DNA from: Candidatus Kaiserbacteria bacterium
GTDB taxonomy: Bacteria; Patescibacteriota; Minisyncoccia; Phycocordibacterales; UBA2100
Direction: 5' to 3'
NCBI GenBank assembly: GCA_016217965.1
Contig: JACRFI010000015.1
Span: forward strand, 16,366-80,365
Length of the DNA stretch: 64,000 nt
In this document: piece after piece, positions 38,319 to 61,252 of the stretch
Layout: the number at the start of each line of letters is the position of its first letter
How positions within the stretch are numbered: the stretch's first letter is position 1
Translations under genes and position numbers: made by a program
The notes under the pieces: model-generated
The model's database searches: none
What the model was told of the DNA's origin: nothing
The model's input: the letters and a program-made list of their open reading frames with translations, nothing else

Positions 38319-39281
38319 ATGGCAAATAAGGACAAAAGCACCAATTCCGTCCCTCATGCCGACGATTTCCTCTTACATATCCAAGCCAATAATTATTCTG
38401 AGGAGACTCTGTACAACTACGAGCGAGATCTTGAAGTATTCTCGAATTTTCTCAAGAACGAGTTGGGCTCCTTCCCTTTCGAGAAGGTTGATAAGCGTAC
38501 TGTTGAACACTTTAAGGCGTATCTGAATTCCAGCGATCGGCAGACGGCTAAGCAGCAGGTGGCTGAACATAAGCTATCGAGTGGCACGATAAACAGGAAT
38601 CTAACGTCATTGCGGCGATATCTTGCGTATTTAATCGATATGGATCTTCCGTGCCCACTCGAGCCGAGCGCCATCAAATTACTTAGACGCGAGAAAAAAC
38701 ATCCCCAAGTATCCGAATTGAACGAGCTCATTCGGCTTATCGAGTCTCCCATGAAATTCGAGAAAGATAAGTCTGTTGCGCTTCGCAATCGTGCGGCGCT
38801 CGAGACCTTATTTGCGAGCGGTATGCGTATTTCGGAGCTGATCAACCTCAAAAGGAATCAATTGGATAACACCGGTCGGATCTTTATTCAGGGGAAAGGA
38901 AAGAAACAGCGATTCATCTACCTGACTGAGCGAGCGAAGAAACACATCGCTGAATACTTAACGGAACGAACGGATGACTTCCCCTACCTCTTCATCGCGA
39001 AGAGCGGCTCCAATGCTGCTGACAAGACTAAGCATATTTCTGCGAATTATTTGCAGATGAAAATAAAGAAATATCGCGAGCTTCTTGGTATCAACGTTCC
39101 TACGAGTGCGCACTCTTTGAGACACGGCTTCGCCACGTATCTCGCCGAAGAAGGCGCTAACCCGGCAGCGATACAAGTACTTCTTGGCCACGAGTCATTG
39201 GATACGACCACGCGATATGTGCATGCCTCGGACAGATATGCAGAAGACTCGCACCGTAAATTTCATCCTTTAAAAGAATAA
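38319..39281 (+). CDS. tyrosine site-specific recombinase (XerC/XerD family)
   Basis: N-terminal core-binding domain; catalytic box I (ALRNRAALETLFASGMRISEL) and box II (HSLRHGFATYLAEEGANPAAIQVLLGHESLDTTTRYVH). Confidence 0.8.
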   Translation: MANKDKSTNSVPHADDFLLHIQANNYSEETLYNYERDLEVFSNFLKNELGSFPFEKVDKRTVEHFKAYLNSSDRQTAKQQVAEHKLSSGTINRNLTSLRRYLAYLIDMDLPCPLEPSAIKLLRREKKHPQVSELNELIRLIESPMKFEKDKSVALRNRAALETLFASGMRISELINLKRNQLDNTGRIFIQGKGKKQRFIYLTERAKKHIAEYLTERTDDFPYLFIAKSGSNAADKTKHISANYLQMKIKKYRELLGINVPTSAHSLRHGFATYLAEEGANPAAIQVLLGHESLDTTTRYVHASDRYAEDSHRKFHPLKE

Positions 39282-47663: not shown

Positions 47664-47692
47664 GCCCGGGCACTTTCCTATAGTGCTTGGGC
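47664..47692. terminator. shared stem-loop between convergent cysS and leuS
   Basis: GCCCGGGCACT / AGTGCTTGGGC 11-bp stem (two G-U pairs) with 7-nt loop; no clear U-tract; 3' arm overlaps the leuS C-terminal codons. Confidence 0.35.
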
Positions 47693-50897: not shown

Positions 50898-51842
50898 CTA
50901 TTCGCGTACGGGAATTCCCTTCGGATACACCGGGTATAAGTCGGGGTCGATAGTTCTGTCGAAACAGTGTTCGCCTTGCCCATGCAACCAGTTATCCGCG
51001 CTCGTTCCATATTCAGGATACGCAACTTGCATGCCCTTGGTTTCTTCTGTGACTTCGAAGTTAAATGTCGCACAGAGCTTGAACGACATATCCCCCGTCT
51101 TTTGATACGTATATGCTTGTTCATTCTGTGGATCTATGGGTGCCTTCCAACCAGAGATAGGATCTTCAAGTTGCCCGAGTGACGCTGGAAGAGATTCTTT
51201 CTGCTGCCAATAATTGACAACCTGCCACTGGATATTCTGAAGGTCGGAGATTTTTTGTGTGTCATACCGCATGAGGCGCACGTCGCCCGGCGTACCCATG
51301 ATAAAGAATCCTGCAATTATCGTGAGTAGAACAGCGGCGCCTGCTCCATAGCCGACCATCTGAGCGCTGCCTCGATTGGCAGTCCAGTATCCGCGCAGGT
51401 CAGCAAGAAAGTGAAGGAACGCTGCGCCCGCGACCAAAAGCAACACGACGACTTTGAGAAGGAATGGAGTAGTAAGATCTCCACCCAAGAATGAATTTAT
51501 AAGCGCGATTAGGTCGCCGATGACTGCAGCCCCAGCAATGAATACCGTGAGTACGAGCGCCCAGCGGCGTATCCACAAGTCATTTTTCTCAGGCGTTCGC
51601 GCGATGTCCGAGCGGATATAGCGCATTAAGAGAAGTGTCACAGGGACAAGCACAATGAGGGTTGCCATCGCAAAGCGCATGCTTCCTGAGAACGGATCGG
51701 AATAGTAGTACGTCAGAGGATCCGGGTATGCGTAGTTAATGTATTGGAATAGAAGCGTAATAAAAGAAATGACGCTGCCATAGAGCGCCACCATCGCACC
51801 TGCCCAGAGAAAGAAATCTTTCGGAGTTACCTTTGGTTGCAT
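50898..51842 (-). CDS. hypothetical polytopic membrane protein with C-terminal soluble domain
   Basis: ~6 TM helices then ~110-aa hydrophilic domain; no motif. Confidence 0.45.
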   Translation of the reverse strand: MQPKVTPKDFFLWAGAMVALYGSVISFITLLFQYINYAYPDPLTYYYSDPFSGSMRFAMATLIVLVPVTLLLMRYIRSDIARTPEKNDLWIRRWALVLTVFIAGAAVIGDLIALINSFLGGDLTTPFLLKVVVLLLVAGAAFLHFLADLRGYWTANRGSAQMVGYGAGAAVLLTIIAGFFIMGTPGDVRLMRYDTQKISDLQNIQWQVVNYWQQKESLPASLGQLEDPISGWKAPIDPQNEQAYTYQKTGDMSFKLCATFNFEVTEETKGMQVAYPEYGTSADNWLHGQGEHCFDRTIDPDLYPVYPKGIPVRE

Positions 51843-51918: not shown

Positions 51919-53334
51919 TTACCAACCGAATTGTCTCCCTACCTCCTCCGGCGTTTCTCGTTTTCGTACCACTTTTATCTCGCCGTTTGATGCCATCAAT
52001 TTTAGAGGAGACGACAGCAAGCAGTGGTGCGACGAAAGAGAATCTTGGTACGCTCCCGTGTCAAAAAATGCGACGAATAGTTCCTCGACGTCCGTTAGAC
52101 GTGGCAACAGCACATATGAGCCGCCGTTCGTATATTTATCATCACTGTCGCACGAGCTGCCCGCAAGCCAAACTCTGTCGAGTTTTGAATAGTTCATGTT
52201 GTTGACCGGGACAACGTGCCACTTCTGCTTCAAGGCCCATGTGTCCGTGAGGTCGTTCATAAAACTGCCGTCCACGACGTACCATTTGTTACCGCCTTTA
52301 TTAAGCACCTTTTTTTCTGCAAGGACCTTGTAGATAGTAATCTGTGCAGGAGCCACGACATATCTTCCCCATTCTACGATAAGGTTCGGATGCCGAATTC
52401 CAAGAGAGTCGCATTGTGTCTTTGCGGTCTTTACCAGTTTTTGTATGAGATTCTTTCCAGAATAAAAACGTTTGTTTTTGTTGTAAGGCACGCCAGCACC
52501 GCCGCCGATATCTAACGTATCCAGCCCAGGATTCTTTTCTTTCACTTTTGCATAGAGCTGTAGTGCTCGTTTCAAAGGTTCTACGAGCCCATTCACGTTC
52601 TCTATTTGGCTAGAAATGTGGTAGTGGAGGACGGATAAGTTCCGTATCTTACCCAGATCCAATATTTCCTGCTCCGTAAAGCCAAATCTATTGAATTTTT
52701 TATCCCAATGGCTTTTTACTTTGACGTTTAAGTCCACGCGAATTCCGACTGGTCCTTTGAATTTTTGCATTCTCTCCAATTCCACGGGGTCCTCGATAAT
52801 TGGAACGACTGTCAGGCCCTTGCCACGAAGCTCCTCGATAAGATCCATGTATCGCTCGGTTTTCGGCCCGTTGCAGATGACCCGCATTTTGCTGTGGAAT
52901 TTTTCCTGCTCTAGCATTCTCTTGACGAGGAACAACTCGTTTGCACTTCCAACATCAAGGTTAGAGCCCTCAGCGACCGCCGGAAGGACGAATTCGCGGT
53001 TCTGATTCACCTTCATTGGATAGTGGTAGTAGAACTTTCCTTTATAGCCGAGAACTTTTATGTATGCGTTAAATGTTTCTATGAGGTCACGCACCCTGTT
53101 CTCAACGATGGTTGGGAAAAATAACTCTGTTCCTGTACCGTACTTTTTGACGATATCGAAAATATTGTATTGATAGTTACCTTCACGCACAGTAAGTTCG
53201 CCGTCCGCGCTAATGTCGAACGCACTCGTATTCTGGTCCTCCATTCCGAGGCGCCAGAATTTTTTGAACCCATTTTTCTTCTTTTTCCTTGTTACTTTTT
53301 TGCGCTTGGAATGTGATGACTCATCTGTACCCAT
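51919..53334 (-). CDS. speA: PLP-dependent decarboxylase, fold III (SpeA-like arginine decarboxylase)
   Basis: YHYPMKVNQ (PLP-Lys), DIGGGAG glycine loop, SCDSDD Cys motif; Lys-rich N-terminal extension; same locus as agmatinase. Confidence 0.6.
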   Translation of the reverse strand: MGTDESSHSKRKKVTRKKKKNGFKKFWRLGMEDQNTSAFDISADGELTVREGNYQYNIFDIVKKYGTGTELFFPTIVENRVRDLIETFNAYIKVLGYKGKFYYHYPMKVNQNREFVLPAVAEGSNLDVGSANELFLVKRMLEQEKFHSKMRVICNGPKTERYMDLIEELRGKGLTVVPIIEDPVELERMQKFKGPVGIRVDLNVKVKSHWDKKFNRFGFTEQEILDLGKIRNLSVLHYHISSQIENVNGLVEPLKRALQLYAKVKEKNPGLDTLDIGGGAGVPYNKNKRFYSGKNLIQKLVKTAKTQCDSLGIRHPNLIVEWGRYVVAPAQITIYKVLAEKKVLNKGGNKWYVVDGSFMNDLTDTWALKQKWHVVPVNNMNYSKLDRVWLAGSSCDSDDKYTNGGSYVLLPRLTDVEELFVAFFDTGAYQDSLSSHHCLLSSPLKLMASNGEIKVVRKRETPEEVGRQFGW

Positions 53335-53480
53335 TTCTGATGTACCTTACCGATGCCTCTCTTCCCCTGGCAGTATTCGGATAGACAAGTGTTATACCAC
53401 GTTTTCCAAAAAATGCACGTTTTTCGCATGAACCTGGGGACAAGCCGATCTAAAAAGCATTCATGGTTTACACTTTCCTC

Positions 53481-53909
53481 ATGCAGTCATGGAAGATATT
53501 CGCTGTCCTCTACACTCTCGGGATTACGGGATATGCACTTGCCGCTAAGTTTAGTGGCGGAAAGATCTCTCCTCTTTTCGGAGCAATGCTAATGACGGCA
53601 TGCTCCCTCTCAATAATTACGTGTTTCTTTCTCTGGTATAGGGTGCACGGAGGTGAATTCACATACACAAGGTATGGTGTTGCAGCAGCTGCGCTAGCTG
53701 GTATTTCAATCGCTCTTGCCGATATAGCACTTTTCTTCATGTATGCACGCGGTGCGCAATTAAGTGTCGCGGCACTTCTCACGGAAGTCATTTCTATCGC
53801 CGTTGTCACCCTGATTGGACTGCTCTTGTTGAAGGAACCGTTTTCGTGGACAAAGGGCCTTGGCATCCTGTTCTCAGCTATTGGCATACTTTTATTATTT
53901 GAGGGATGA
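53481..53909 (+). CDS. EamA-like (DMT superfamily) small membrane protein
   Basis: Four TM helices with EamA-like periodicity. Confidence 0.4.
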   Translation: MQSWKIFAVLYTLGITGYALAAKFSGGKISPLFGAMLMTACSLSIITCFFLWYRVHGGEFTYTRYGVAAAALAGISIALADIALFFMYARGAQLSVAALLTEVISIAVVTLIGLLLLKEPFSWTKGLGILFSAIGILLLFEG

Positions 53910-53918
53910 TCGTGGCAT

Positions 53919-54752
53919 ATGGCACTGCGTGAACAACCAGAAAAACCAGCGGCTGAATCTTTCTGGAAGCTGCATGGACTTAAGGGTGCATTTGTAAATG
54001 AGACCTCGGCGCAGGATGCCATTTTATCCGTATCAAATAAGGGCGAGTGGGATAAGAATCTGTCAAAGTTGCAAAGTTTATTCTGGCCACTTATTAAAGA
54101 GGTCTATTCTCGCTCAGACGAAGAAGTCGCGAGACAGTTGGAGATCACGTTCGAAAATGTTGATAAAGTTTTTATAAAAACCGACGGCTCAAAAATACTT
54201 GGGTTCCTTTGCATCGAGAAGGGCGCCCCTAAGGTCGCAATAATCCGAGACGTCATAGTTCGAAAGGAATTCCAAAATTCCGGCATTGGAAAAGAGCTAT
54301 ATGCGTCATTATTCGCAGAGCCAGAATTCGATGCAGTTATTAGTGCCACAACAACACTTGCCGCTGAAATTAATCGATTCAATGTTGGCAACGAAAACGG
54401 ATTCGATAGCTTTTACGGCACTATGGGTACAGGAAATCCCGAAGTAGAGCGTCTCCGAGCGCTCGATACGGATTATTTGGCAAAAACGGATGTGCTATCC
54501 GAAGATCAATCTTTGTTACCTTCTGATAGCAGCGGATTCGTCCTGACGAAAGGGGACTATATCCCGCGCCTTGAATCCGCGGAAGTTACAGAATTACGAG
54601 AAAGAGCAAGAAAGCAATCAATACCTAGACAAATAGTAGAACAAGCAGACAAGATTTTGGGACTACAACGTGACCTTGACGAAAAACTAGGCAAGAATAA
54701 AGCGCCTGTAGTTGCTGGTCATTTAATTAGCATTCGAAGGCAAAACGAATAG
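53919..54752 (+). CDS. GNAT-family N-acetyltransferase domain protein
   Basis: Motif A-like VRKEFQNSGIGKELY; C-terminal ~120 aa unassigned. Confidence 0.45.
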   Translation: MALREQPEKPAAESFWKLHGLKGAFVNETSAQDAILSVSNKGEWDKNLSKLQSLFWPLIKEVYSRSDEEVARQLEITFENVDKVFIKTDGSKILGFLCIEKGAPKVAIIRDVIVRKEFQNSGIGKELYASLFAEPEFDAVISATTTLAAEINRFNVGNENGFDSFYGTMGTGNPEVERLRALDTDYLAKTDVLSEDQSLLPSDSSGFVLTKGDYIPRLESAEVTELRERARKQSIPRQIVEQADKILGLQRDLDEKLGKNKAPVVAGHLISIRRQNE

Positions 54753-55008
54753 TCACAACACTAAACTACTAGCCAAAATCGAAAAGCAAGTTCAATTATC
54801 CCCTCCCTGTAGAACTTCCAACGCTTTAATCTTCTTAGGATCACTCGCTATTATTTTGGCGAGAGATTTTAATTCCTCGTGAGACAACTCTGCAATCTGG
54901 TGCAACATTCTTTCCGCTTCTGTCAGTTTATCATTCATATTTGCAATGATACCACAACCTTGCATGCGCAGCGGAAAGGCTATTGCACCTGAAGATATTT
55001 GATATACA

Positions 55009-56265
55009 GTGAACGCGATGAAAGGAACGGTTTTGATAATTGGAGCGGGAGGGGTGGGACACGTGACGGCGCATAAGTGTGCGAGAAATAAAAACGTGTT
55101 TAAGAAAATTCATCTCGCTAGCCGAACAATCGGTAAGCCGAACGCGATAAAAAAGGATGTAAAAAAGCGCTGGGGCGTGAATATATCGACCCACGTCGTT
55201 GATGCGGACAAAGCAAGAGATGTCGCAGCACTCATCCGCAAGACGCAGCCGGAGGTAGTTATCAACGTCGCACTTCCCTACCAAGACCTAGCCATCATGG
55301 ACGCGTGTCTTGCAACGAAAGTCCATTATATCGATACCGCGAACTATGAGCCAAAAGATGAGGCGCATTTCGAATACAGCTGGCAGTGGGCATACCAAAA
55401 ACGCTATAAGGATGCGGGTATCATGGCGGTCCTCGGCGCAGGCTTCGACCCGGGAGTTACGAACGCCTACATCGCGTATCTCGCAAAGAAATATTTCGAC
55501 AAGATAAAATACGTAGATATCCTTGATGCGAATGCAGGAAGCCACGGCAAGTCATTTGCGACGAATTTCAATCCTGAAATAAATATCCGCGAGGTCACGC
55601 AGGAAGTGAAGCACTGGAACAAGGGCAAGTGGGTCAAAACGCCGCCCATCATGGACCCTAAGAGCGTACATTTTAAATTCAACTATCCTATCGCAGGCCC
55701 TTGGGAAAGTTACATGCTATATCACGAGGAAATGGAATCGCTCGTCAAGCACTTCCCCTCTGTCGAGCGGATGCGCTTCTGGATGACGTTCGGTGAGAAT
55801 TACCTTACGCATCTTCGAGTAATGGAAAGTATCGGCATTTCTCGCATCGACCCAGTTATGCATGATGGAAAGAAAATAATCCCGATTCAATTCTTGAAAT
55901 CACTTCTTCCCGACCCTGCATCTCTCGCGACTGGCTACAGCGGAAAAGCGGTCATTGGATGCATCGTGACTGGCGTTCCAAAAGGCTCGAAGCTTGAAGC
56001 TAGAAGCCAGAAGCTAATTACGAAGTACATCTATAACGTCACCGACCATGCAAAATGCTTCAAAGAGCTGGGTTCACAAGGAATTTCGTATACAGCCGGC
56101 GTTCCGCCGGTGATTGCTGCCATGATGGTCATGAAAGGCATCTGGAAAGGCGCGGGTGTATTCAATGTCGAACAGCTCGATCCCGAACCATTCCTTAGTA
56201 CCCTCGCTAAGAACGGCTTGCCTTTCAAGGTCATCAACTACAAACCGCTTCCAGCAAAGATTTAA
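55009..56265 (+). CDS. carboxy(nor)spermidine dehydrogenase (saccharopine-dehydrogenase family)
   Basis: N-terminal IIGAGGVGHV NAD(P)-binding loop, ~415-aa SDH-like architecture, adjacency to NspC-like gene. Confidence 0.65.
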   Translation: MNAMKGTVLIIGAGGVGHVTAHKCARNKNVFKKIHLASRTIGKPNAIKKDVKKRWGVNISTHVVDADKARDVAALIRKTQPEVVINVALPYQDLAIMDACLATKVHYIDTANYEPKDEAHFEYSWQWAYQKRYKDAGIMAVLGAGFDPGVTNAYIAYLAKKYFDKIKYVDILDANAGSHGKSFATNFNPEINIREVTQEVKHWNKGKWVKTPPIMDPKSVHFKFNYPIAGPWESYMLYHEEMESLVKHFPSVERMRFWMTFGENYLTHLRVMESIGISRIDPVMHDGKKIIPIQFLKSLLPDPASLATGYSGKAVIGCIVTGVPKGSKLEARSQKLITKYIYNVTDHAKCFKELGSQGISYTAGVPPVIAAMMVMKGIWKGAGVFNVEQLDPEPFLSTLAKNGLPFKVINYKPLPAKI

Positions 56266-56269
56266 ATAA

Positions 56270-56857
56270 ATGGAGCTAAAAATTGCCCTCGGTGCCACTG
56301 CGGTACTGTGCGAAGTAATAAGCGCAGCTCTTTATTTGACTGACATTTTTCGTGGAAACACGAAACCACATTTGTATACCAATCTTGTGTGGTCGGTCGT
56401 CATGAGCATCGCATTTGCCGGCATGATAATCGGAGGCGGCGCTGCCGGGACGTGGGCGACCGGTGCATCACTCCTTCTTATACTCATAACTCTTGTACTT
56501 TCACTTAAATGGGGAACCACTGATATTACTCGTTCCGACAAAGCGTTTCTTGGTGCGGCGTTATTAGCAATTGTTCCATGGGCTATTACAAAAAACCCCC
56601 TCGGTTCGGTCATACTCGCCAGTGCCATAGATGCGTGTGGCATCGCTCCCACGATCCGTAAAACATGGCGAGCGCCCCTCTCTGAATCATTGGCAGCATG
56701 GATATTCGCGCTATTGCGAACAGGGTTCCAAATCGCAGCATTAGCCGTGTACACGCCATTAACAGTGTTATATTTGGCGGAAGTAATGGTTGCAGATGTG
56801 TTATTACTAACGGTCATTCTCTATCGGAGGTCGACTAGCGAGAGGAAAATTCCATAA
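56270..56857 (+). CDS. hypothetical polytopic membrane protein
   Basis: 6 predicted TM helices. Confidence 0.4.
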   Translation: MELKIALGATAVLCEVISAALYLTDIFRGNTKPHLYTNLVWSVVMSIAFAGMIIGGGAAGTWATGASLLLILITLVLSLKWGTTDITRSDKAFLGAALLAIVPWAITKNPLGSVILASAIDACGIAPTIRKTWRAPLSESLAAWIFALLRTGFQIAALAVYTPLTVLYLAEVMVADVLLLTVILYRRSTSERKIP

Positions 56858-56860
56858 CAT

Positions 56861-57772
56861 ATGTGGCAACTCTTTAGCCTCAGCGCGATATTTTGTAACA
56901 CGCTTGAGGAAACAATAGATAAGGCGGCGATGCTTGGTTCGAGCGCACTCGACACATTTGTCGCAGCATTGATTCGGAACATCATCGTGCTTGGTATTGC
57001 GATCGCAGTGGCATTTCTCATCTACCGATCAGTGCCAGAGATAATCTTCTCTCTTCCGATAATCTGGTGGGGCTTCGTATATGCGATACAGGCCATCTCC
57101 TATACGTGGATATTGAAGTACATAGAAATAACGGCAGCCAGCGTAACGTTCGCGCTTCTTCCTCTTGTATTCTTGCCCATAGATATCTTTTTCCGGCACG
57201 AGTCGCTTACTCTGATGCAGATAGGAGGAGTCGGGACATTGGTTATTGGCGGACTTGTTTTCTTTGCACGCAAGGATCTGTCAAAAAGACTCTCAAATGC
57301 CAAATACATATTGATGATGCTTGGCGTTTTGGTTTTTGATGCGATCGTCATTGGTTCAGAAGGATATATTTTCAAGAGTTATTACGAGCAGTATGAGATA
57401 GCGCCCGCTTCTTTCCTTGTAAGCGGAATGCTGTACATGTGCGCCTTTCTTGCAGTAATGCTTGCTATCCGTTTCGCATGGGCCGGCAAGGGTATACAGT
57501 TGCAGGGGGCGCTTTCCTACGCTCGCGGAGCGTCTCTTGCGAAACTAGCGGATTATGGGAATATCTTTTTCACATTGCATGCCCTTACTATTGTGACCGT
57601 TACACAAGTCGCTGCGATGAAAGTTGTCCATCCGTTGATATTGCTGATAATCACGATGTTCGCTCAACAGAAATTCAAAATTGATCTTGAAGAAGTATTC
57701 ACGAAGGAAACCGTCATTCAAAAATGCGCCGGAATCCTGCTTGTGGTCATGGGCTCTTTTCTCGTTGCTTAG
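56861..57772 (+). CDS. hypothetical polytopic membrane protein (transporter-like, ~9-10 TM)
   Basis: Hydropathy only. Confidence 0.4.
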   Translation: MWQLFSLSAIFCNTLEETIDKAAMLGSSALDTFVAALIRNIIVLGIAIAVAFLIYRSVPEIIFSLPIIWWGFVYAIQAISYTWILKYIEITAASVTFALLPLVFLPIDIFFRHESLTLMQIGGVGTLVIGGLVFFARKDLSKRLSNAKYILMMLGVLVFDAIVIGSEGYIFKSYYEQYEIAPASFLVSGMLYMCAFLAVMLAIRFAWAGKGIQLQGALSYARGASLAKLADYGNIFFTLHALTIVTVTQVAAMKVVHPLILLIITMFAQQKFKIDLEEVFTKETVIQKCAGILLVVMGSFLVA

Positions 57773-58281
57773 AGACGCTGCGATTCATGTTCTGCGGCGT
57801 ATTTCTCTGCCGCAGCGATGTCCATCGCTTGGTGCTCACCGTCTAGTTCTTTCTTATACGCCGCCAACGCGCGAGGATGCATAACCCAGACATCCATACC
57901 CTCAACTTTGAGTTTTAATTTTCTAGAAATCTCACTTAGATATGGAATCCACTCTGTCCTCGCTTGGTTGCTGATGCGAGGATCATTGTCTATGCCGCTT
58001 AAATCCATCTCCTGCCCCTGATAATTCAGTGTGATCATATCCATATCCCATTTCCCATCTTTAAAACGAGCGGGACCAAATGTTATATATTCTGATATTT
58101 CAGGTACTATCGTTGGAAATGACTTTACTGATAGGTCAATATCAATATCGTTAAGTGACCTAGGAGATCCGTATATTTTTGCGGCAAAACCACCAGTCAT
58201 TTGATATTCAACCTCATTCCTTTGTAAAAGTTCTAGAATCCAACGTAGCGCGCGCATCGTTTTTTCTTCCATAAGGACCAT
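57769..58281 (-). CDS. minimal nucleotidyltransferase family protein (Lnu/LinB-like)
   Basis: MTGGFAAKIYGSPRSLNDIDIDL matches GGx..GxxRxxxDIDI of Lnu-type NTases; ORF extends to 58416. Confidence 0.5.
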   Translation of the reverse strand: MVLMEEKTMRALRWILELLQRNEVEYQMTGGFAAKIYGSPRSLNDIDIDLSVKSFPTIVPEISEYITFGPARFKDGKWDMDMITLNYQGQEMDLSGIDNDPRISNQARTEWIPYLSEISRKLKLKVEGMDVWVMHPRALAAYKKELDGEHQAMDIAAAEKYAAEHESQRL

Positions 58282-58330
58282 TCTACACCGAGCATCTCGC
58301 GAATCGGATATAATGTAGTACATTGCTCGT

Positions 58331-59551
58331 ATGCGGAAGCGACCAGCATCGACTATCGACCCATCGAAGATCCAGACTGCCGCATTTGTGATCGAAGAAG
58401 AATTGCTACGGCACAATCTAGGTGTTCTTAAATACGTGATGGATAAGACGGGTGTAAAAATGTATCAGGCACTGAAGACGTGGGCAACATGGCCACTGTT
58501 CCCTATCACGCGAGAATATCTAGACGGAACCGAGGTGAGCTCGTTGAATGAGGCGCGGCTTGGATACGATGAGTTCAATCATGAGGTGCACATGTATGCT
58601 CCTGCATACAAAGACGAGGAATTCGCCGATATTCTTAAGTATTGCAGCACCATCATTTTCAATTCTTTCGAGCAGTGGAAGAAATTCAAGCCGCTTGTCG
58701 AGCAATTCGTCAAAGATACGGGAATGAAGCGAGAATGTGGTCTACGCATCAATCCTGAATACTTAGGCAAAGAAGAAAGTGGAGGTCTGTGGACGCCGTG
58801 CGCTCCAGGATCTCGGCTAGGTATTCGTATCAGTGAATTCAAGGCGACACTCAAAGAAAATCCAAAAGCACTTGATGGGATAAGCGGTTTTCATTTCCAT
58901 ATTTTCTGGGACAAAACGTTCGATGAACTGCAAGACGCTGTCGAGGTTGTTGAGAAGAATTTCGGCGACTATTTTGCGCAGGTACAATGGATCAATTTCG
59001 GAGGCGGGCAGAAGATATCCGACGATGACTACGATGTTGAAGGTCTTGTCAAACTGGTGAATAGTTTCCAGAAAAAGCACGATGTTATTGTGCACATGGA
59101 ACCAGGAGCCGCGATTGTCAAAAATGCCGGAGCGCTTGTCGCGAGTGTACTCGATGTCGTCTATCGAGATGACGTGGACTACAAGATCGCCATTCTCGAC
59201 ATGTCATTCAACGCGCATACGCCAGATTTTCTTCTCAGTGGTGAACTGGACATGCCAGTCACCGGGGCAAAAATAATCCATGACGAAAAAGAACTTAAGA
59301 ATTATAAAAATGTGTACCAGCTGGCGGGCGGTACATGTGTGACCGGAGACAAACTTGGGCATTTCCATTCATTCGCGAAACCATTAAAAGCTGGTGACAA
59401 AGTGATCATGGAGGACGGCATCCAATACAACCTGGTGCAATGCACCATGTTCAACGGCGTGCAGCACCCTAGCATCGTTCTGTGGAAGGGTGGCAAATCG
59501 GAGATGATCCGAGAATTCACCTACGAGGACTACAGATCCAGAATGGGCTAA
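58331..59551 (+). CDS. nspC: carboxy(nor)spermidine decarboxylase (NspC-like, PLP fold III)
   Basis: ~400-aa alanine-racemase-fold decarboxylase pattern (GLRINPEY..., GFHFH..., FGGGQ..., CVTGDKLG). Confidence 0.65.
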   Translation: MRKRPASTIDPSKIQTAAFVIEEELLRHNLGVLKYVMDKTGVKMYQALKTWATWPLFPITREYLDGTEVSSLNEARLGYDEFNHEVHMYAPAYKDEEFADILKYCSTIIFNSFEQWKKFKPLVEQFVKDTGMKRECGLRINPEYLGKEESGGLWTPCAPGSRLGIRISEFKATLKENPKALDGISGFHFHIFWDKTFDELQDAVEVVEKNFGDYFAQVQWINFGGGQKISDDDYDVEGLVKLVNSFQKKHDVIVHMEPGAAIVKNAGALVASVLDVVYRDDVDYKIAILDMSFNAHTPDFLLSGELDMPVTGAKIIHDEKELKNYKNVYQLAGGTCVTGDKLGHFHSFAKPLKAGDKVIMEDGIQYNLVQCTMFNGVQHPSIVLWKGGKSEMIREFTYEDYRSRMG

Positions 59552-59554
59552 CGT

Positions 59555-60190
59555 ATGGTCATGGACTTCGACTCGCTCACGAAAGCAAGTGCCTTGAGGA
59601 GCACACTTCGTGCGCTGGATGATGATAATAAGATTGGAGATCGTGTTCTCGACATTGGATCTGGCCCTTTGCCAGTCTCCACGTTTCTTCTGAGGAAAAA
59701 AACATCGCGCAAAATAGTAAATATGGACGTTGCGGACTTTGGCGACGATCCACGCGGCAACCTTAATCTTCGCTATAACGTCAACAATGCCGACGATCCG
59801 AACGCCTATTCTACGAAAAAAACTATCTTTACAGCCGCGCAACACTTTGGCGTCGATCTAAGCCTCTCGCAAGGTACAGAGCAGGTGGATACCATGATTT
59901 TTTCCGAGCTACTGAATTACGTTGATTTTAGAAGTGTTTTATCGAGTTATGCGCGCTATCTTAAGGCAGGCGGACGATTCATCATTCTCAATAAACCAGG
60001 CCATCATCCGCGTAACAAAGCCGATCTACTCCATCCCAAAGGTGTTCAAAACAACGCTGAATTGATAGATTTTTTGCAAAATGACTTTGTTATCGAGCAA
60101 AAAACATTCCCTTTTAGGCGCGAAGAAGGCCTCGATGATGCGCGGAGCGAGGGGGACGCAATGATGCTTCTCGTTGCGCGCAAGAAGTAA
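59555..60190 (+). CDS. class I SAM-dependent methyltransferase
   Basis: Motif I VLDIGSGP and downstream acidic motif. Confidence 0.5.
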   Translation: MVMDFDSLTKASALRSTLRALDDDNKIGDRVLDIGSGPLPVSTFLLRKKTSRKIVNMDVADFGDDPRGNLNLRYNVNNADDPNAYSTKKTIFTAAQHFGVDLSLSQGTEQVDTMIFSELLNYVDFRSVLSSYARYLKAGGRFIILNKPGHHPRNKADLLHPKGVQNNAELIDFLQNDFVIEQKTFPFRREEGLDDARSEGDAMMLLVARKK

Positions 60191-60208
60191 TGCGCTAGGA
60201 TTGCAATC

Positions 60209-61252
60209 ATGTCGATGCAAGATTTTGATCCTAATGGTGTGGGCCAAGAAGGTTCGGGCATTTTTGGACTTCCCTATGCACCAAACGATGCTCAAGTGGT
60301 GCTCATTCCGGCTCCATGGGGCGTTACGGTCTCGTACGGAGGCGGTACGCATGATGGGCCCAAGGCGATATACGAAGCGTCCCCGCAAATAGATTACGAC
60401 CATCCGAGCTATGGTGCAGACTCCTGGAAGATTGGAATTTCAATGCTCCCCCTTGGAGAGTGGGATAATGCATACAAAGAGGGTGTAGCGTTGCGCGAAA
60501 AAGCGAAAGCGCATATCGAGGAGCTAGAACACGGCAAAACAGAACCCGCACCTCAAGAAATCAATGATGCGTGCGAAAGATTCCATGCTCGCATTGAGAC
60601 AACTGCGACGGAACTCTTGAATAAGAATAAGCTGGTGGGACTTATAGGCGGCGACCATTCTACGCCCTTGGGGCTCATCCGAGCACTTGCCGCAAAGCAT
60701 GGCGACTTTGGCATCCTGCAGATAGACGCGCACCACGACCTCCGCGAGTCATACGAAGGCTTTACCTATTCCCATGCTTCAATCATGTGGAACTCCCTTA
60801 AATTGCCAGCCGTTAAAAAACTCGTTCAAGTTGGAATTCGAGATTATTCCGCTGGCGAGACAGAGTTTGTTAAAAACTCGAATGGCCGAGTCGCGGTATT
60901 CTACGACGAGGAAATGAAATCACGGCAGTACAATGGGGAAACATTTGCACAAATCGTTAAAAATATTGTAGACGTTCTACCCAAGAAGGTATACATAAGT
61001 TTCGATATCGACGGTCTCGATCCTGCACTTTGCCCGAATACAGGTACTCCGGTTCCTGGGGGCCTCCAATTTCAGGAAGCTGTGTACCTTATCCGCGCCG
61101 TTGCGGAATCGGGCAAGACAATCATCGGTTTCGATGTGAACGAAGTCAGTCCTTCAAAAGATTCAGAATGGAACCAGAATGTCGGAATGCGAGTTCTCTG
61201 GAACCTCGCGATGTGGGCAGCGAAGTCAAATGGTCTACAGCCAAAAGCTTAG
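60209..61252 (+). CDS. speB: agmatinase (arginase/ureohydrolase family)
   Basis: GGDHS, DAHHDL and SFDIDGLDP manganese-binding motifs. Confidence 0.75.
   Translation: MSMQDFDPNGVGQEGSGIFGLPYAPNDAQVVLIPAPWGVTVSYGGGTHDGPKAIYEASPQIDYDHPSYGADSWKIGISMLPLGEWDNAYKEGVALREKAKAHIEELEHGKTEPAPQEINDACERFHARIETTATELLNKNKLVGLIGGDHSTPLGLIRALAAKHGDFGILQIDAHHDLRESYEGFTYSHASIMWNSLKLPAVKKLVQVGIRDYSAGETEFVKNSNGRVAVFYDEEMKSRQYNGETFAQIVKNIVDVLPKKVYISFDIDGLDPALCPNTGTPVPGGLQFQEAVYLIRAVAESGKTIIGFDVNEVSPSKDSEWNQNVGMRVLWNLAMWAAKSNGLQPKA

What the first reader, a model, noticed from the sequence alone, without database searches (positions are those of the whole stretch)
51919..61252. Complete alternative spermidine pathway (ADC, agmatinase, carboxyspermidine dehydrogenase and decarboxylase) interleaved with NTase, GNAT, methyltransferase and membrane genes
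A SpeA-like arginine decarboxylase lies on the minus strand at 51919-53334. Carboxy(nor)spermidine dehydrogenase (55009-56265), NspC-like decarboxylase (58331-59551) and agmatinase (60209-61252) lie on the plus strand. Together these would make spermidine from arginine without SpeD/SpeE. Interspersed are an EamA-like protein, a GNAT, two polytopic membrane proteins, an Lnu-like minimal NTase on the opposite strand, and a SAM methyltransferase. The GNAT and MTase could modify polyamines by acetylation or methylation, and the membrane proteins could export them. An antibiotic-type NTase inside a polyamine locus is unexpected.
Basis: partly seen in the sequence, partly recalled or inferred. Interest (0 to 1): 0.5.

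Follow-up and report, generated by a model that had tools for sequence, protein, structure and literature searches.

The report
Spermidine-making gene cluster in a Kaiserbacterium
A tiny-genome candidate-phyla-radiation (CPR) bacterium carries the four genes needed to turn arginine into spermidine, most likely by the recently described route through carboxyaminopropylagmatine rather than through putrescine; this is a known kind of pathway with mostly lineage-specific genes inserted between its parts.

Summary
All ten ORFs exist at the stated coordinates. The four enzyme genes have strong family matches and are 70-90% identical in more than 100 Patescibacteria relatives. The window is from Candidatus Kaiserbacteria.

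The product is spermidine made without SpeD/SpeE, but the route is probably different.
- The dehydrogenase carries the published signature of carboxyaminopropylagmatine dehydrogenase (CAPADH): N112, F121, E240. Tested carboxyspermidine dehydrogenases have I/(W or E)/D at these sites.
- The "agmatinase" misses both curated agmatinase cut-offs. It has the DxR motif that Xi et al. reported for N1-aminopropylagmatine ureohydrolase (APAUH).
- The likely path is arginine, agmatine, CAPA, aminopropylagmatine, spermidine.

The arginine decarboxylase is a short SpeA-like form. It lacks SpeA's helical insert and C-terminal tail, and NCBI labels it "hypothetical protein".

The cluster does not supply its own aspartate semialdehyde. 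Relatives L098 and L012 have aspartate kinase beside the dehydrogenase (L098 also the semialdehyde dehydrogenase); the window has neither gene.

Close relatives (L013, L002) have the four genes contiguous, so the interleaved genes are insertions. One exception is the 303-aa DMT-type membrane protein, which sits between the dehydrogenase and the decarboxylase in four diverged loci. The "Lnu-like NTase" and the "methyltransferase" are only weak superfamily matches.

Verdict: new member of a known kind.

The parts
51919..53334 (-). Short SpeA-like PLP decarboxylase (471 aa); inferred arginine decarboxylase that makes agmatine
   Evidence: Pfam Orn_Arg_deC_N E 3e-25. NCBIfam SpeA 208.9 and 187.7 bits, above LysA at 160.8, all below cut-offs. 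SpeA-type motifs are present: YPMKVNQ (105), HYHISSQ (237), SCDSDD (394), GAYQDS (427). It lacks SpeA's ~91-aa insert and C-terminal tail. It has D-x-W where DAPDC has R-P-A-M-Y. It lies next to the dehydrogenase in 8 different locus layouts.
53463..53909 (+). Small EamA/DMT-like membrane protein (148 aa); accessory, function unknown
   Evidence: Pfam EamA 27.0 bits, below the 28.2 cut-off. At least 4 hydrophobic segments. The only homologue among related loci is in L001, at 62% identity.
53919..54752 (+). GNAT-family acetyltransferase (277 aa); accessory, substrate unknown
   Evidence: Pfam Acetyltransf_1 30.3 bits against a cut-off of 20.7. No informative match to solved structures. The homologue in L001 (54% identity) is the N-terminal part of a 611-aa protein. 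L098 has two unrelated GNATs in its cluster.
55009..56265 (+). Carboxyaminopropylagmatine dehydrogenase-type enzyme (CAPADH clade of the saccharopine dehydrogenase family); likely start at 55018
   Evidence: Pfam Sacchrp_dh_NADP plus Sacchrp_dh_C. Signature residues N112/F121/E240 match CAPADH N104/F113/E228. Best solved structures are 8deb, 4ina, 8h4z and 4rl6, E 1e-150 to 1e-138. Identity is 57% to Bacteroides finegoldii and 43-45% to Paracoccus and Sinorhizobium CASDH.
56270..56857 (+). Polytopic membrane protein (195 aa); accessory, unknown family
   Evidence: No Pfam or NCBIfam hit. About 6-7 hydrophobic segments. Absent from L001, L013 and L098. A 30%-identical homologue lies 1 kb from a homologue of the 303-aa protein in L100.
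56861..57772 (+). DMT/EamA-like 9-10-TM transporter (303 aa) that recurs inside this operon; candidate carrier of a pathway metabolite
   Evidence: Weak EamA hit of 19.3 bits. JGI labels some homologues as DMT permeases, and only 20 homologues exist in 5.8 billion proteins. It lies between the dehydrogenase and the decarboxylase in the window, L001 (93%), L098 (57%) and L099 (54%).
57769..58281 (-). Minimal nucleotidyltransferase-fold protein (~162-170 aa); accessory, function unknown
   Evidence: Aminoglyc_resit E 0.005. LnuA 17.9 bits against a cut-off of 300. TM1012 E 0.03. Among the loci compared, the only homologue is in L001 (81% identity, called there as 164 aa). The ORF's 5' extension to 58416 is the antisense of the decarboxylase start.
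58331..59551 (+). Carboxy(amino-propyl-amine) decarboxylase of the CANSDC/CASDC/CAPADC family
   Evidence: NCBIfam nspC E 1.6e-116, 388.9 bits against a cut-off of 409; LysA only 65.6 bits. Solved CANSDC structures 9eaf E 1.3e-85 and 3n29 E 1.7e-74; DAPDC only E 8e-5.
59555..60190 (+). Possible class I SAM methyltransferase (211 aa); accessory, seen only in this window among the loci compared
   Evidence: Methyltransf_23 19.2 bits, below the cut-off of 27. A VLDIGSGP motif can be read in the sequence. No structural sequence match. No homologue in any fetched locus. It starts 3 bp after the decarboxylase and ends 18 bp before the ureohydrolase.
60209..61252 (+). Arginase-fold ureohydrolase (347 aa) with an insertion of roughly 30-45 residues; inferred N1-aminopropylagmatine ureohydrolase
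   Evidence: Pfam Arginase E 4e-58. Agmatinase models are below their cut-offs: 164.8 vs 174.3 and 144.9 vs 302. The metal-site motifs GGDH(147-150), DAHHD(173-177) and DIDGLD(266-271) are present. DAHHDLR (R179) matches the APAUH D149-x-R151 and 3pzl's DAHSDFR, whereas E. coli SpeB has DAHTDTY.

Best explanation
The locus is a Patescibacteria version of the carboxyaminopropylagmatine (CAPA) route to spermidine.

Proposed steps (chemistry inferred, not measured):
1. The short SpeA-like decarboxylase converts arginine to agmatine.
2. The CAPADH-type dehydrogenase condenses agmatine with L-aspartate beta-semialdehyde, using NADPH, to give carboxyaminopropylagmatine.
3. The NspC-family decarboxylase removes CO2 to give N1-aminopropylagmatine.
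4. The arginase-fold ureohydrolase removes urea to give spermidine.

Putrescine and carboxyspermidine are not intermediates. The semialdehyde must come from genes outside the window, or from outside the cell.

Shown here: gene identities at family level, the CAPADH signature, the DxR motif and the synteny. Inferred: every substrate.

The ancestral layout is four contiguous genes. In this lineage the three junctions between them have taken up extra genes. Most of these are lineage-specific and of unknown function. One, the 303-aa DMT-type transporter, is kept between the dehydrogenase and the decarboxylase across diverged relatives. It probably moves a pathway substrate or product.
For: Organism:
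- The dehydrogenase is 100% identical to a Candidatus Kaiserbacteria protein.

Dehydrogenase:
- Xi et al. 2023 (PMC10599626) define CAPADH by N104/F113/E228, against I/W/D in CASDH and V/E/D in CANSDH.
- The window protein has N112/F121/E240. These are kept in 120/120, 119/120 and 120/120 relatives.
- Paracoccus denitrificans CASDH (tested in PMC11999265) and the Sinorhizobium enzyme have I and D at the first and third sites.
- Nine of the ten residues Xi et al. named are conserved.
- The nearest solved structures include the H. pylori (8h4z) and S. pneumoniae (4rl6) enzymes, which Xi et al. assayed as CAPADH.

Ureohydrolase:
- It is below both agmatinase cut-offs.
- It has DAHHDLR, like the assayed APAUH 3pzl, and unlike E. 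coli SpeB.

Decarboxylase:
- It is firmly in the NspC family.

Context:
- The four genes are a tight operon in L002/L003, L006-L008 and L013.
- The same order with a full-length SpeA occurs in Desulfoprunum (L026).
- In L014/L015 the ureohydrolase is replaced by an agmatine-deiminase-family gene plus a CN-hydrolase gene. Two unrelated ways of removing a guanidino group imply that the pathway carries one, which points to an arginine-derived substrate.
- Aspartate kinase and aspartate-semialdehyde dehydrogenase sit inside the cluster in L098. Aspartate kinase sits beside the dehydrogenase in L012. This confirms dependence on the semialdehyde.
- Li et al. note that the presence of an arginine decarboxylase correlates with the aminopropylagmatine route.

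Transporter.
Against: - No enzyme of this CPR clade has been assayed. The signature residues come from one study's docking and mutagenesis.
- The T343 equivalent is Ala in the window and in 88/120 relatives.
- CAPADH-clade enzymes keep weak putrescine activity. The close B. fragilis structure 8deb is deposited as 'carboxyspermidine dehydrogenase'.
- The second APAUH signature residue (E60) could not be mapped. The likely position holds Asp (D62 or D64), and the protein has an extra insertion there.
- Agmatine ureohydrolases can be promiscuous.
- The decarboxylase fold cannot separate SpeA from DAPDC. Foldseek E-values are equal, and the model's mean pLDDT is only 75.7.
- No source of aspartate semialdehyde is present in the 64 kb window.
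Confidence: 0.7

Rival explanations
1. The decarboxylase makes agmatine, the ureohydrolase is a true agmatinase that makes putrescine, the dehydrogenase makes carboxyspermidine from putrescine, and the decarboxylase then gives spermidine.
For: - The same four families would serve this route.
- The agmatinase model TIGR01230 is missed by only 10 bits.
- CAPADH-clade enzymes show measurable putrescine activity.
- 8deb is named carboxyspermidine dehydrogenase.
- The T343 equivalent is Ala, as in the alphaproteobacterial CASDHs.
- CASDC and CAPADC are interchangeable.
Against: - All three CAPADH-specific residues are present and are nearly invariant in the clade. Tested CASDHs differ at them.
- Identity to tested CASDHs is only 43-45%, against 57% to a Bacteroides homologue of the CAPADH clade (B. 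finegoldii, itself not assayed); of the tested CAPADH orthologues, H. pylori (8h4z) and S. pneumoniae (4rl6) are among the nearest solved structures.
- The ureohydrolase has the APAUH DxR motif, which E. coli SpeB lacks.
- Synechocystis CAPADH is 3-4 orders of magnitude less efficient on putrescine.
Confidence: 0.2
2. The cluster does not make spermidine. The AR-fold enzymes are lysine-pathway or other amino-acid decarboxylases (DAPDC, ODC), and the dehydrogenase is a saccharopine or lysine dehydrogenase or a homospermidine synthase.
For: - Public annotations call the dehydrogenase 'saccharopine dehydrogenase'. One JGI record calls a decarboxylase relative 'diaminopimelate decarboxylase'.
- LysA scores 160.8 bits on the 471-aa protein.
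- DAPDC structures match the model as well as SpeA structures do.
Against: - LysA is below its cut-off of 297.9 on both decarboxylases.
- The 406-aa protein matches solved carboxynorspermidine decarboxylases at E 1e-85, against E 8e-5 for DAPDC.
- The 471-aa protein has SpeA motifs, and has D-x-W in place of the DAPDC R-P-A-M-Y.
- The dehydrogenase is 57% identical to a Bacteroides homologue and carries the residues Xi et al. found variable in saccharopine reductase, lysine dehydrogenase and homospermidine synthase.
- There is no lysine-pathway context. Instead the genes co-occur with ureohydrolase or deiminase genes.
Confidence: 0.03
3. The interleaved GNAT, methyltransferase-like, NTase and membrane genes form, with the core enzymes, one extended pathway that makes and exports a modified (acetylated or methylated) polyamine.
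For: - Gene spacing is tight, at 3-18 bp: dehydrogenase, 195-aa and 303-aa genes; and decarboxylase, methyltransferase-like gene, ureohydrolase. This suggests co-transcription.
- GNAT genes occur in three extended clusters: the window, L001 and L098.
- The 303-aa transporter is operon-specific.
Against: - L013, with the same flanking genes, has none of these genes. Neither do L002, L006 or any of 80 non-CPR loci.
- The methyltransferase-like gene and the 195-aa gene are absent even from L001.
- The GNATs in L098 are not homologous to the window's GNAT at E below 1e-3.
- The NTase and methyltransferase assignments are below all curated thresholds.
Confidence: 0.07

Closest known systems
CAPA pathway of Synechocystis sp. 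PCC 6803 (ADC, Slr0049 CAPADH, Sll0873 CAPADC, Sll0228 APAUH; Xi et al. 2023, PMC10599626)
   Same: - The same four enzyme families are present.
- The dehydrogenase carries the same signature residues (N/F/E) and 9 of the 10 named active-site residues.
- The ureohydrolase has the D-x-R motif.
- The dehydrogenase and decarboxylase genes are neighbours, as in most species Xi et al. surveyed.
   Different: - The host phylum, Patescibacteria, is not among the 15 phyla Xi et al. listed.
- The arginine decarboxylase is a 471-aa two-domain form rather than a ~640-aa SpeA.
- The ureohydrolase has an extra insertion, and the residue at the putative E60 position is uncertain or Asp.
- The T343 equivalent is Ala.
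- Accessory genes are interleaved.
- None of these enzymes has been assayed.
Carboxyspermidine / carboxynorspermidine pathway (CASDH/CASDC of Agrobacterium and Paracoccus; CANSDH/CANSDC of Vibrio cholerae)
   Same: - The dehydrogenase and decarboxylase are homologous.
- The aminopropyl group also comes from aspartate semialdehyde.
- The decarboxylases are functionally interchangeable.
   Different: - The signature residues differ: I/(W or E)/D in Paracoccus and Sinorhizobium.
- Identity is only 43-45%.
- The NCBIfam carboxynorspermidine synthase score is 373 against a cut-off of 800.
- Those pathways pair with ornithine decarboxylase or diaminobutyrate enzymes, not with an arginine decarboxylase plus ureohydrolase.
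SpeA-CAPADH-CAPADC-ureohydrolase operon of ordinary bacteria, e.g. Desulfoprunum benzoelyticum (L026)
   Same: The gene order (decarboxylase, dehydrogenase, decarboxylase, ureohydrolase) is the same as in the compact Kaiserbacteria operons L002/L003, and L013 has the same three downstream genes with a divergently transcribed decarboxylase.
   Different: - L026 has a 641-aa SpeA. The window protein aligns to it at 28% identity in two blocks and skips residues 361-451 and 582-641.
- L026 has no accessory genes.
E. coli SpeA/SpeB (arginine decarboxylase and agmatinase)
   Same: - The protein folds are the same.
- The PLP-lysine and Cys-Asp-Ser-Asp motifs of SpeA are present.
- The arginase-family metal-binding motifs are present.
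   Different: - The scores are below the SpeA cut-offs (209 vs 369; 188 vs 624) and the SpeB cut-offs (145 vs 302).
- The SpeA insert and tail are missing.
- SpeB has DAHTDTY where the window protein has DAHHDLR.
Hybrid dcAdoMet plus aspartate-semialdehyde pathways (Clostridium leptum, Desulfovibrio desulfuricans; Li et al. 2025, PMC11999265)
   Same: They use the same CAPADH/CAPADC module acting on agmatine. Relatives L004 (Aenigmarchaeota) and L014/L015 place a spermidine-synthase-family gene next to the module, with an AdoMet decarboxylase as well in L004.
   Different: The window itself has no AdoMet decarboxylase or aminopropyltransferase in the cluster.

Membership tests
CAPADH (carboxyaminopropylagmatine dehydrogenase; Xi et al. 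2023) | Signature residues N104, F113 and E228 (Synechocystis numbering), found only in CAPADH orthologues | tested here: met
   The window protein has N112, F121 and E240 with the same spacing (N, +2 E, +9 F; H-E pair). These are kept in 120/120, 119/120 and 120/120 relatives. Paracoccus and Sinorhizobium CASDH have I and D at the first and third sites.
CAPADH | Catalytic and binding residues E106, D139, D165, E187, H227, T342 and T343 | tested here: inconclusive
   E114, D147, D173, E195, H239 and T362 are conserved. The T343 equivalent is A363 in the window and in 88/120 relatives. Xi et al. found that the T343A variant had significantly lower activity.
CAPADH | Closer to assayed CAPADHs than to assayed CASDH or CANSDH | tested here: met
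   The nearest solved structures include 8h4z (H. pylori) and 4rl6 (S. pneumoniae), both assayed as CAPADH, at E of about 1e-139. Identity is 57% to B. finegoldii and 43% to the assayed P. denitrificans CASDH.
CAPADH | NADPH-dependent condensation of agmatine with aspartate semialdehyde, with far lower efficiency on putrescine | not testable with these tools
   This needs an enzyme assay.
Carboxynorspermidine synthase (NCBIfam NF043000, equivalog) | Whole-protein score of at least 800 bits | tested here: not met
   The score is 373.5 bits.
Carboxy(nor)spermidine / CAPA decarboxylase (NspC, TIGR01047) | Whole-protein score of at least 409.05 bits, and clear separation from LysA | tested here: inconclusive
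   The score is 388.9 bits, 20 bits under the cut-off. It covers the full length (14-404 against 1-379 of 380). LysA scores only 65.6 bits. Solved CANSDCs match at E 1e-85 to 1e-59, against E 8e-5 for DAPDC. The protein is functionally in the family, but substrate preference cannot be read from this enzyme.
Agmatinase SpeB (TIGR01230; PRK02190) | Scores of at least 174.3 and 302 bits | tested here: not met
   The scores are 164.8 and 144.9 bits.
Ureohydrolase (arginase) superfamily | Binuclear-metal ligands in the GGDH, DAHxD and DxDxxDP motifs | tested here: met
   H150, D173, H175, D177, D266 and D268 are invariant in the alignment with E. coli SpeB. Pfam Arginase E 4e-58.
N1-aminopropylagmatine ureohydrolase (APAUH; Xi et al. 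2023) | R151 two residues after the metal ligand D149 | tested here: met
   DAHHD177-L-R179. The same D-x-R is present in all four long-type CPR ureohydrolases, in the short type of L006, and in 3pzl (assayed APAUH) and 3lhl. It is absent from E. coli SpeB, 1gq6, 3nio and 1wog.
APAUH | E60, which contacts the aminopropyl end of the substrate from the neighbouring subunit | tested here: inconclusive
A Glu in an 'LE-x-Y' motif is shared by 3pzl, 3lhl and the L006 enzyme. The window protein has 'QIDYD' (D62, D64) there.
Biosynthetic arginine decarboxylase SpeA (PRK05354; TIGR01273) | Scores of at least 369 and 624 bits, and an architecture of about 630 aa with a helical insert and a C-terminal domain | tested here: not met
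   The scores are 208.9 and 187.7 bits. The regions matching E. coli and Desulfoprunum SpeA residues ~361-451 and the last ~60 residues are absent. The protein resembles SpeA and probably works like it, but it is not a canonical member.
SpeA-like active site | The motifs P-(I/M)-K-V-N-Q (PLP lysine), H-x-H-x-(G/S)-S-Q, C-D-S-D and G-A-Y-Q-(E/D) | tested here: met
   All are present at residues 105, 237, 394 and 427, and are invariant in 36 relatives.
Diaminopimelate decarboxylase LysA (TIGR01048) | Score of at least 297.9 bits, and the Arg/Tyr pair of the N-D-x-M-R-P-A-M-Y motif. Its role in binding the distal carboxylate is recalled from DAPDC structures and was not re-checked here. | tested here: not met
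   The 471-aa protein scores 160.8 bits and the 406-aa protein 65.6 bits. The window has N-D-L-T-D-T-W-A-L, with Asp where LysA has Arg, as SpeA does.
Lincosamide / aminoglycoside nucleotidyltransferase (LnuA NF000236; PF10706) | Scores of at least 300 and 21 bits | tested here: not met
   The scores are 17.9 and 17.4 bits. Solved Lnu structures match only at E 0.44. Only the generic NTase motif (GGF...NDIDID) is seen.
Class I SAM-dependent methyltransferase | Pfam gathering score (Methyltransf_23, 27 bits) or a clear Rossmann SAM-binding motif | tested here: inconclusive
   The score is 19.2 bits. A motif I-like VLDIGSGP is present. There is no match to solved structures.
DMT / EamA transporter superfamily (303-aa protein) | Two EamA repeats with about 10 transmembrane segments, and a Pfam score of at least 28.2 bits | tested here: inconclusive
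   The score is 19.3 bits for one repeat. There are 9-10 hydrophobic segments. Several homologues carry precomputed PF00892, and JGI calls two of them DMT-like permeases.

The most novel reading that the evidence does not exclude
Patescibacteria run a streamlined CAPA-type spermidine module built from two enzyme forms that have never been characterised. One is a two-domain 'mini-SpeA' arginine decarboxylase, part of a wide family with no curated model. The other is a long-insert aminopropylagmatine ureohydrolase. The module also includes an operon-specific DMT transporter with only about 20 known homologues. This transporter would exchange a pathway metabolite with the host cell: arginine, agmatine, spermidine, or the aspartate-semialdehyde precursor that this genome may not be able to make.
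Probability: 0.2. Interest if true: 0.55.

Novelty: new member of a known kind. Interest (0 to 1): 0.35.

Why it matters
- CPR bacteria have very small genomes and lack most biosynthesis. Even so, many Kaiserbacteria keep a dedicated polyamine pathway of four to six genes. In some lineages this includes their own aspartate kinase and aspartate-semialdehyde dehydrogenase. This suggests spermidine is something they cannot simply take from a host.
- Public annotations of these genes are misleading: 'saccharopine dehydrogenase', 'hypothetical protein', 'agmatinase'. Correcting them changes metabolic reconstructions of these organisms.
- The short SpeA-like decarboxylase and the operon-linked DMT transporter are concrete, cheap targets for the E. 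coli complementation assays already used in this field.
- None of this overturns current knowledge. It extends the CAPA pathway to a phylum that the original survey did not list.

Tried and rejected
It returned only relatives at about 55-62% identity from other phyla, with no Patescibacteria. It was useless for CPR synteny but served as a non-CPR control set.
2. The promoter and terminator scan of 51.5-62 kb found no more sites than shuffled sequence. Transcription units were not inferred from it.
3. An AlphaFold model of the decarboxylase (pLDDT 75.7, active-site loops below 50) was searched with Foldseek. DAPDC and SpeA matched equally well. SpeA had a slightly higher query-normalised TM-score (0.76-0.80 against 0.70-0.73). 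The fold cannot decide the substrate.
4. Searches of solved structures with the GNAT, methyltransferase-like and NTase proteins found nothing below E 0.01.
5. The APAUH E60 residue could not be mapped. The supplement of Xi et al. is not held and no accessible collection has Sll0228. The residue offset from 3pzl numbering is unreliable.
6. tRNA and Rfam scans of the window found nothing.
7. I first considered that all the interleaved genes were random insertions. That is rejected for the 303-aa transporter.
8. I considered that the NTase overlaps the decarboxylase gene. This is rejected as an ORF-calling artefact.
9. Literature searches for this pathway in CPR or Kaiserbacteria found only Li et al. 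2023, which covers a SpeD-derived ODC plus homospermidine synthase.

Full report
**What is there**

The four enzyme genes have strong family matches:
- 51919-53334(-): an alanine-racemase-fold PLP decarboxylase. Orn_Arg_deC_N E 3e-25. The best curated model is SpeA at 208.9 bits, ahead of LysA at 160.8.
- 55009-56265(+): a two-domain saccharopine-dehydrogenase-family protein. Carboxynorspermidine synthase model E 1.5e-111, but 373 bits against a cut-off of 800.
- 58331-59551(+): an NspC-family decarboxylase. E 1.6e-116, 388.9 bits against a cut-off of 409. LysA scores only 65.6.
- 60209-61252(+): an arginase-fold ureohydrolase. E 4e-58. The agmatinase models score 164.8 against 174.3, and 144.9 against 302.

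The dehydrogenase is 100% identical to a protein of a Candidatus Kaiserbacteria MAG (a 138-kb contig). It has 120 listed relatives at 66-91% identity, mostly Patescibacteria, with a few labelled Aenigmarchaeota or Peribacteria. The rest of the window is typical CPR content: aminoacyl-tRNA synthetases, cell-wall genes and chaperones. It has no tRNA or Rfam hits.

**Which route**

Xi et al. 2023 (PMC10599626) showed that many enzymes annotated as carboxyspermidine dehydrogenase actually condense agmatine with aspartate semialdehyde to form carboxyaminopropylagmatine. This compound is then decarboxylated to N1-aminopropylagmatine and hydrolysed to spermidine.

They give a signature for these CAPADH enzymes: N104, F113 and E228. 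CASDH has I/W/D and CANSDH has V/E/D at the same sites. The window protein reads TAN112-Y-E114-PKDEAH-F121 and LYH239-E240, with the same spacing.

I aligned it with its 120 relatives, Bacteroides finegoldii, Paracoccus denitrificans CASDH (assayed as carboxyspermidine-forming in PMC11999265) and the Sinorhizobium meliloti enzyme:
- N is present in 120/120 relatives, F in 119/120 and E in 120/120.
- The two alphaproteobacterial enzymes have I and D at the first and third sites.
- Identity is 57% to the Bacteroides protein and 43-45% to the CASDHs.

Nine of the ten residues named by Xi et al. are conserved. The T343 equivalent is Ala in the window and in 88/120 relatives. The nearest solved structures are 8deb, 4ina, 8h4z and 4rl6. 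The H. pylori (8h4z) and S. pneumoniae (4rl6) enzymes were assayed as CAPADH.

**The ureohydrolase**

For the aminopropylagmatine ureohydrolase, Xi et al. name E60 and R151 as specific residues. The window protein has DAHHD177-L-R179.

The same D-x-R is found in:
- all CPR ureohydrolases I aligned;
- 3pzl, which Xi et al. assayed as APAUH;
- 3lhl.

E. coli SpeB has DAHTDTY at this position. Proclavaminate amidinohydrolase, guanidinobutyrase and the Deinococcus agmatinase also lack the Arg.

E60 could not be placed, because I could not obtain the Synechocystis sequence. A Glu in an LE-x-Y motif is shared by 3pzl, 3lhl and the short CPR enzyme of L006. It aligns with Asp (QID62-Y-D64) in the window protein, which also carries an insertion of roughly 30-45 residues just after this point.

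Because a CAPADH uses agmatine directly, a true agmatinase would compete with it for substrate. The pathway logic therefore also favours an aminopropylagmatine ureohydrolase.

**The arginine decarboxylase**

The 471-aa protein keeps the SpeA-type motifs: YPMKVNQ, HYHISSQ, GGGAGVPY, SCDSDD and GAYQDSL. It aligns to E. coli SpeA and to the 641-aa SpeA of Desulfoprunum in two blocks. The alignment skips the ~91-residue helical insert and the C-terminal ~60 residues.

Where diaminopimelate decarboxylases have N-D-x-M-R-P-A-M-Y, both SpeA and the window protein have D-x-W, with Asp in place of the Arg. The role of that Arg/Tyr pair in binding the distal carboxylate is my recollection of the DAPDC structures. 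I did not re-check it here.

An AlphaFold model (pLDDT 75.7) matched DAPDC and SpeA structures equally well, so the fold does not decide the substrate.

The protein belongs to a wider set of 440-500-aa SpeA-like proteins. These hit the SpeA models best but fall below their cut-offs, and no curated family covers them. NCBI calls the CPR members 'hypothetical protein'.

The best argument for arginine is context. The gene sits with the dehydrogenase and the NspC-family decarboxylase in eight different layouts. The fourth function is supplied either by one of two ureohydrolase types (347 aa or 281 aa, 30% identical to each other) or by an agmatine-deiminase-family gene plus a CN-hydrolase gene. 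These are unrelated ways of removing a guanidino group.

**Not self-sufficient**

The dehydrogenase needs aspartate semialdehyde.
- In L098 the flanking genes match the window's, with LeuRS and DUF5671 on one side and YchF on the other. There, aspartate kinase and aspartate-semialdehyde dehydrogenase lie between the arginine decarboxylase and the dehydrogenase.
- In L012, whose dehydrogenase is 91% identical to the window's, aspartate kinase lies directly upstream of it.
- A Micrarchaeota locus (L043) and L032 also have both genes alongside.
- The window has no homologue of either gene: tblastn E above 0.1, and no Pfam hit among 40 other ORFs.

The remaining ~74 kb of the contig and the rest of the genome could not be examined.

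**The interleaved genes**

L013 has the same flanking genes as the window (DUF5671 at 81% identity, YchF at 90%). Its layout is decarboxylase(-) then dehydrogenase, decarboxylase and ureohydrolase, with nothing in between. The complete Kaiserbacteria genome CP066682.1 (L002) and L006-L008 also have compact four-gene operons. So does Desulfoprunum. The compact form is therefore ancestral, and the window has gained genes at all three junctions.

| Locus | Genes gained between the core genes |
|---|---|
| Window | EamA-like, GNAT, 195-aa, 303-aa, NTase, methyltransferase-like |
| L001 | EamA-like (62%), GNAT region (54%, part of a 611-aa protein), 303-aa (93%), NTase (81%) |
| L098 | aspartate kinase, semialdehyde dehydrogenase, a 97-aa ORF, two unrelated GNATs, 303-aa (57%) |
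| L099 | 303-aa (54%), two small unrelated ORFs |
| L012 | aspartate kinase (upstream of the dehydrogenase), CorA |

L001 lacks the 195-aa and methyltransferase-like genes. None of the accessory genes occurs in 80 non-CPR loci.

The 303-aa protein stands out:
- It has only 20 homologues in 5.8 billion proteins.
- In the three relatives whose loci I read (L001, L098, L099) it lies between the dehydrogenase and the decarboxylase.
- Three more homologues share their contig lengths with dehydrogenase hits (6024, 6474 and 4892 bp). They are probably on the same contigs, but I did not read those contigs.
- It has 9-10 hydrophobic segments and weak EamA similarity.

I read it as a DMT-type carrier tied to the pathway. 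Its substrate is unknown.

The NTase is only a minimal nucleotidyltransferase fold, at 17.9 bits against an LnuA cut-off of 300. Its ORF is over-extended by about 45 codons, which are the antisense of the decarboxylase start. The methyltransferase assignment rests on a sub-threshold hit and one motif.

**Comparison and novelty**

This is the CAPA pathway in a phylum that Xi et al. did not list. They surveyed RefSeq reference genomes. Polyamine genes in CPR, including Kaiserbacteria, are already known from Li et al. 2023: a SpeD-derived ornithine decarboxylase with homospermidine synthase. I found no paper in the held library that describes this pathway in CPR. That library is incomplete.

I classify the finding as a new member of a known kind. 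It has two enzyme forms worth testing (the short SpeA-like decarboxylase and the long-insert ureohydrolase) and one operon-linked transporter.

**Confidence**
- CAPA route: 0.7.
- Classical carboxyspermidine route: 0.2.
- Extended modified-polyamine pathway: 0.07.
- Not a polyamine pathway: 0.03.

Noticed in passing
window 47678-50605 (-): The leucyl-tRNA synthetase (975 aa) has an alpha/beta-hydrolase domain (residues ~243-418, GHSLGG motif) inserted before the editing domain. L001's LeuRS has the same insertion. L098's LeuRS (1138 aa) has a NUDIX domain instead.
   Followed up: partly
L098 3496-5901; L012 2-1000; L043 and L032: Aspartate kinase and aspartate-semialdehyde dehydrogenase lie inside or next to the polyamine cluster in a CPR relative, in a Micrarchaeota MAG and in one further MAG (L032). 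L012 has the kinase only. In these small genomes the genes look dedicated to supplying the aminopropyl donor.
   Followed up: partly
L004 6647-10464: An Aenigmarchaeota (DPANN) contig has AdoMet decarboxylase, a spermidine-synthase-family gene, a dehydrogenase 71% identical to the window's, and the NspC-type decarboxylase in a row. This is the 'hybrid' layout known from bacteria. The high identity suggests transfer between CPR and DPANN.
   Followed up: no
L014/L015 10001-15765: In another Patescibacteria lineage the ureohydrolase is replaced by a CN-hydrolase gene and an agmatine-deiminase-family (PAD_porph) gene. This matches the alternative last steps that Xi et al. speculated about. A 496-aa spermidine-synthase-family gene lies nearby.
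   Followed up: no
window 51919-53334 and proteins P0261-P0410: There is a wide family of 440-500-aa SpeA-like decarboxylases: 88 clusters (at 50% identity) with E of 1e-30 or better. They hit the SpeA models best but fall below the cut-offs, and no curated family covers them. Canonical ~630-aa SpeA proteins rank below them.
   Followed up: partly
L100 765-3332: A 30%-identical homologue of the 195-aa membrane protein lies 1 kb from a 39%-identical homologue of the 303-aa transporter, on a short contig with no polyamine genes visible. The two membrane proteins may work as a pair.
   Followed up: no
L098 6275-7627: This relative's dehydrogenase has a ~40-residue Lys/Ala-rich N-terminal tail that resembles histone H1. 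The arginine decarboxylase family also has a conserved basic N-terminus (KKKNGFKKFWRLG).
   Followed up: no
window 54792-54965 (-): A 57-aa ORF with a helical-looking sequence lies in the 256-bp gap between the GNAT and dehydrogenase genes. A terminator-like hairpin at 54844-54863 (+) lies inside it. Neither was tested for conservation.
   Followed up: no
window 50898-51842 (-): A DUF5671 membrane protein flanks the cluster in the window, L001, L013 and L098, at 55-85% identity. It is the conserved left neighbour of the arginine decarboxylase in this lineage.
   Followed up: no
window 38319-39281 (+): A tyrosine recombinase or phage-integrase-family gene lies between ORFs with no family match. 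I did not check whether it marks a mobile element.
   Followed up: no
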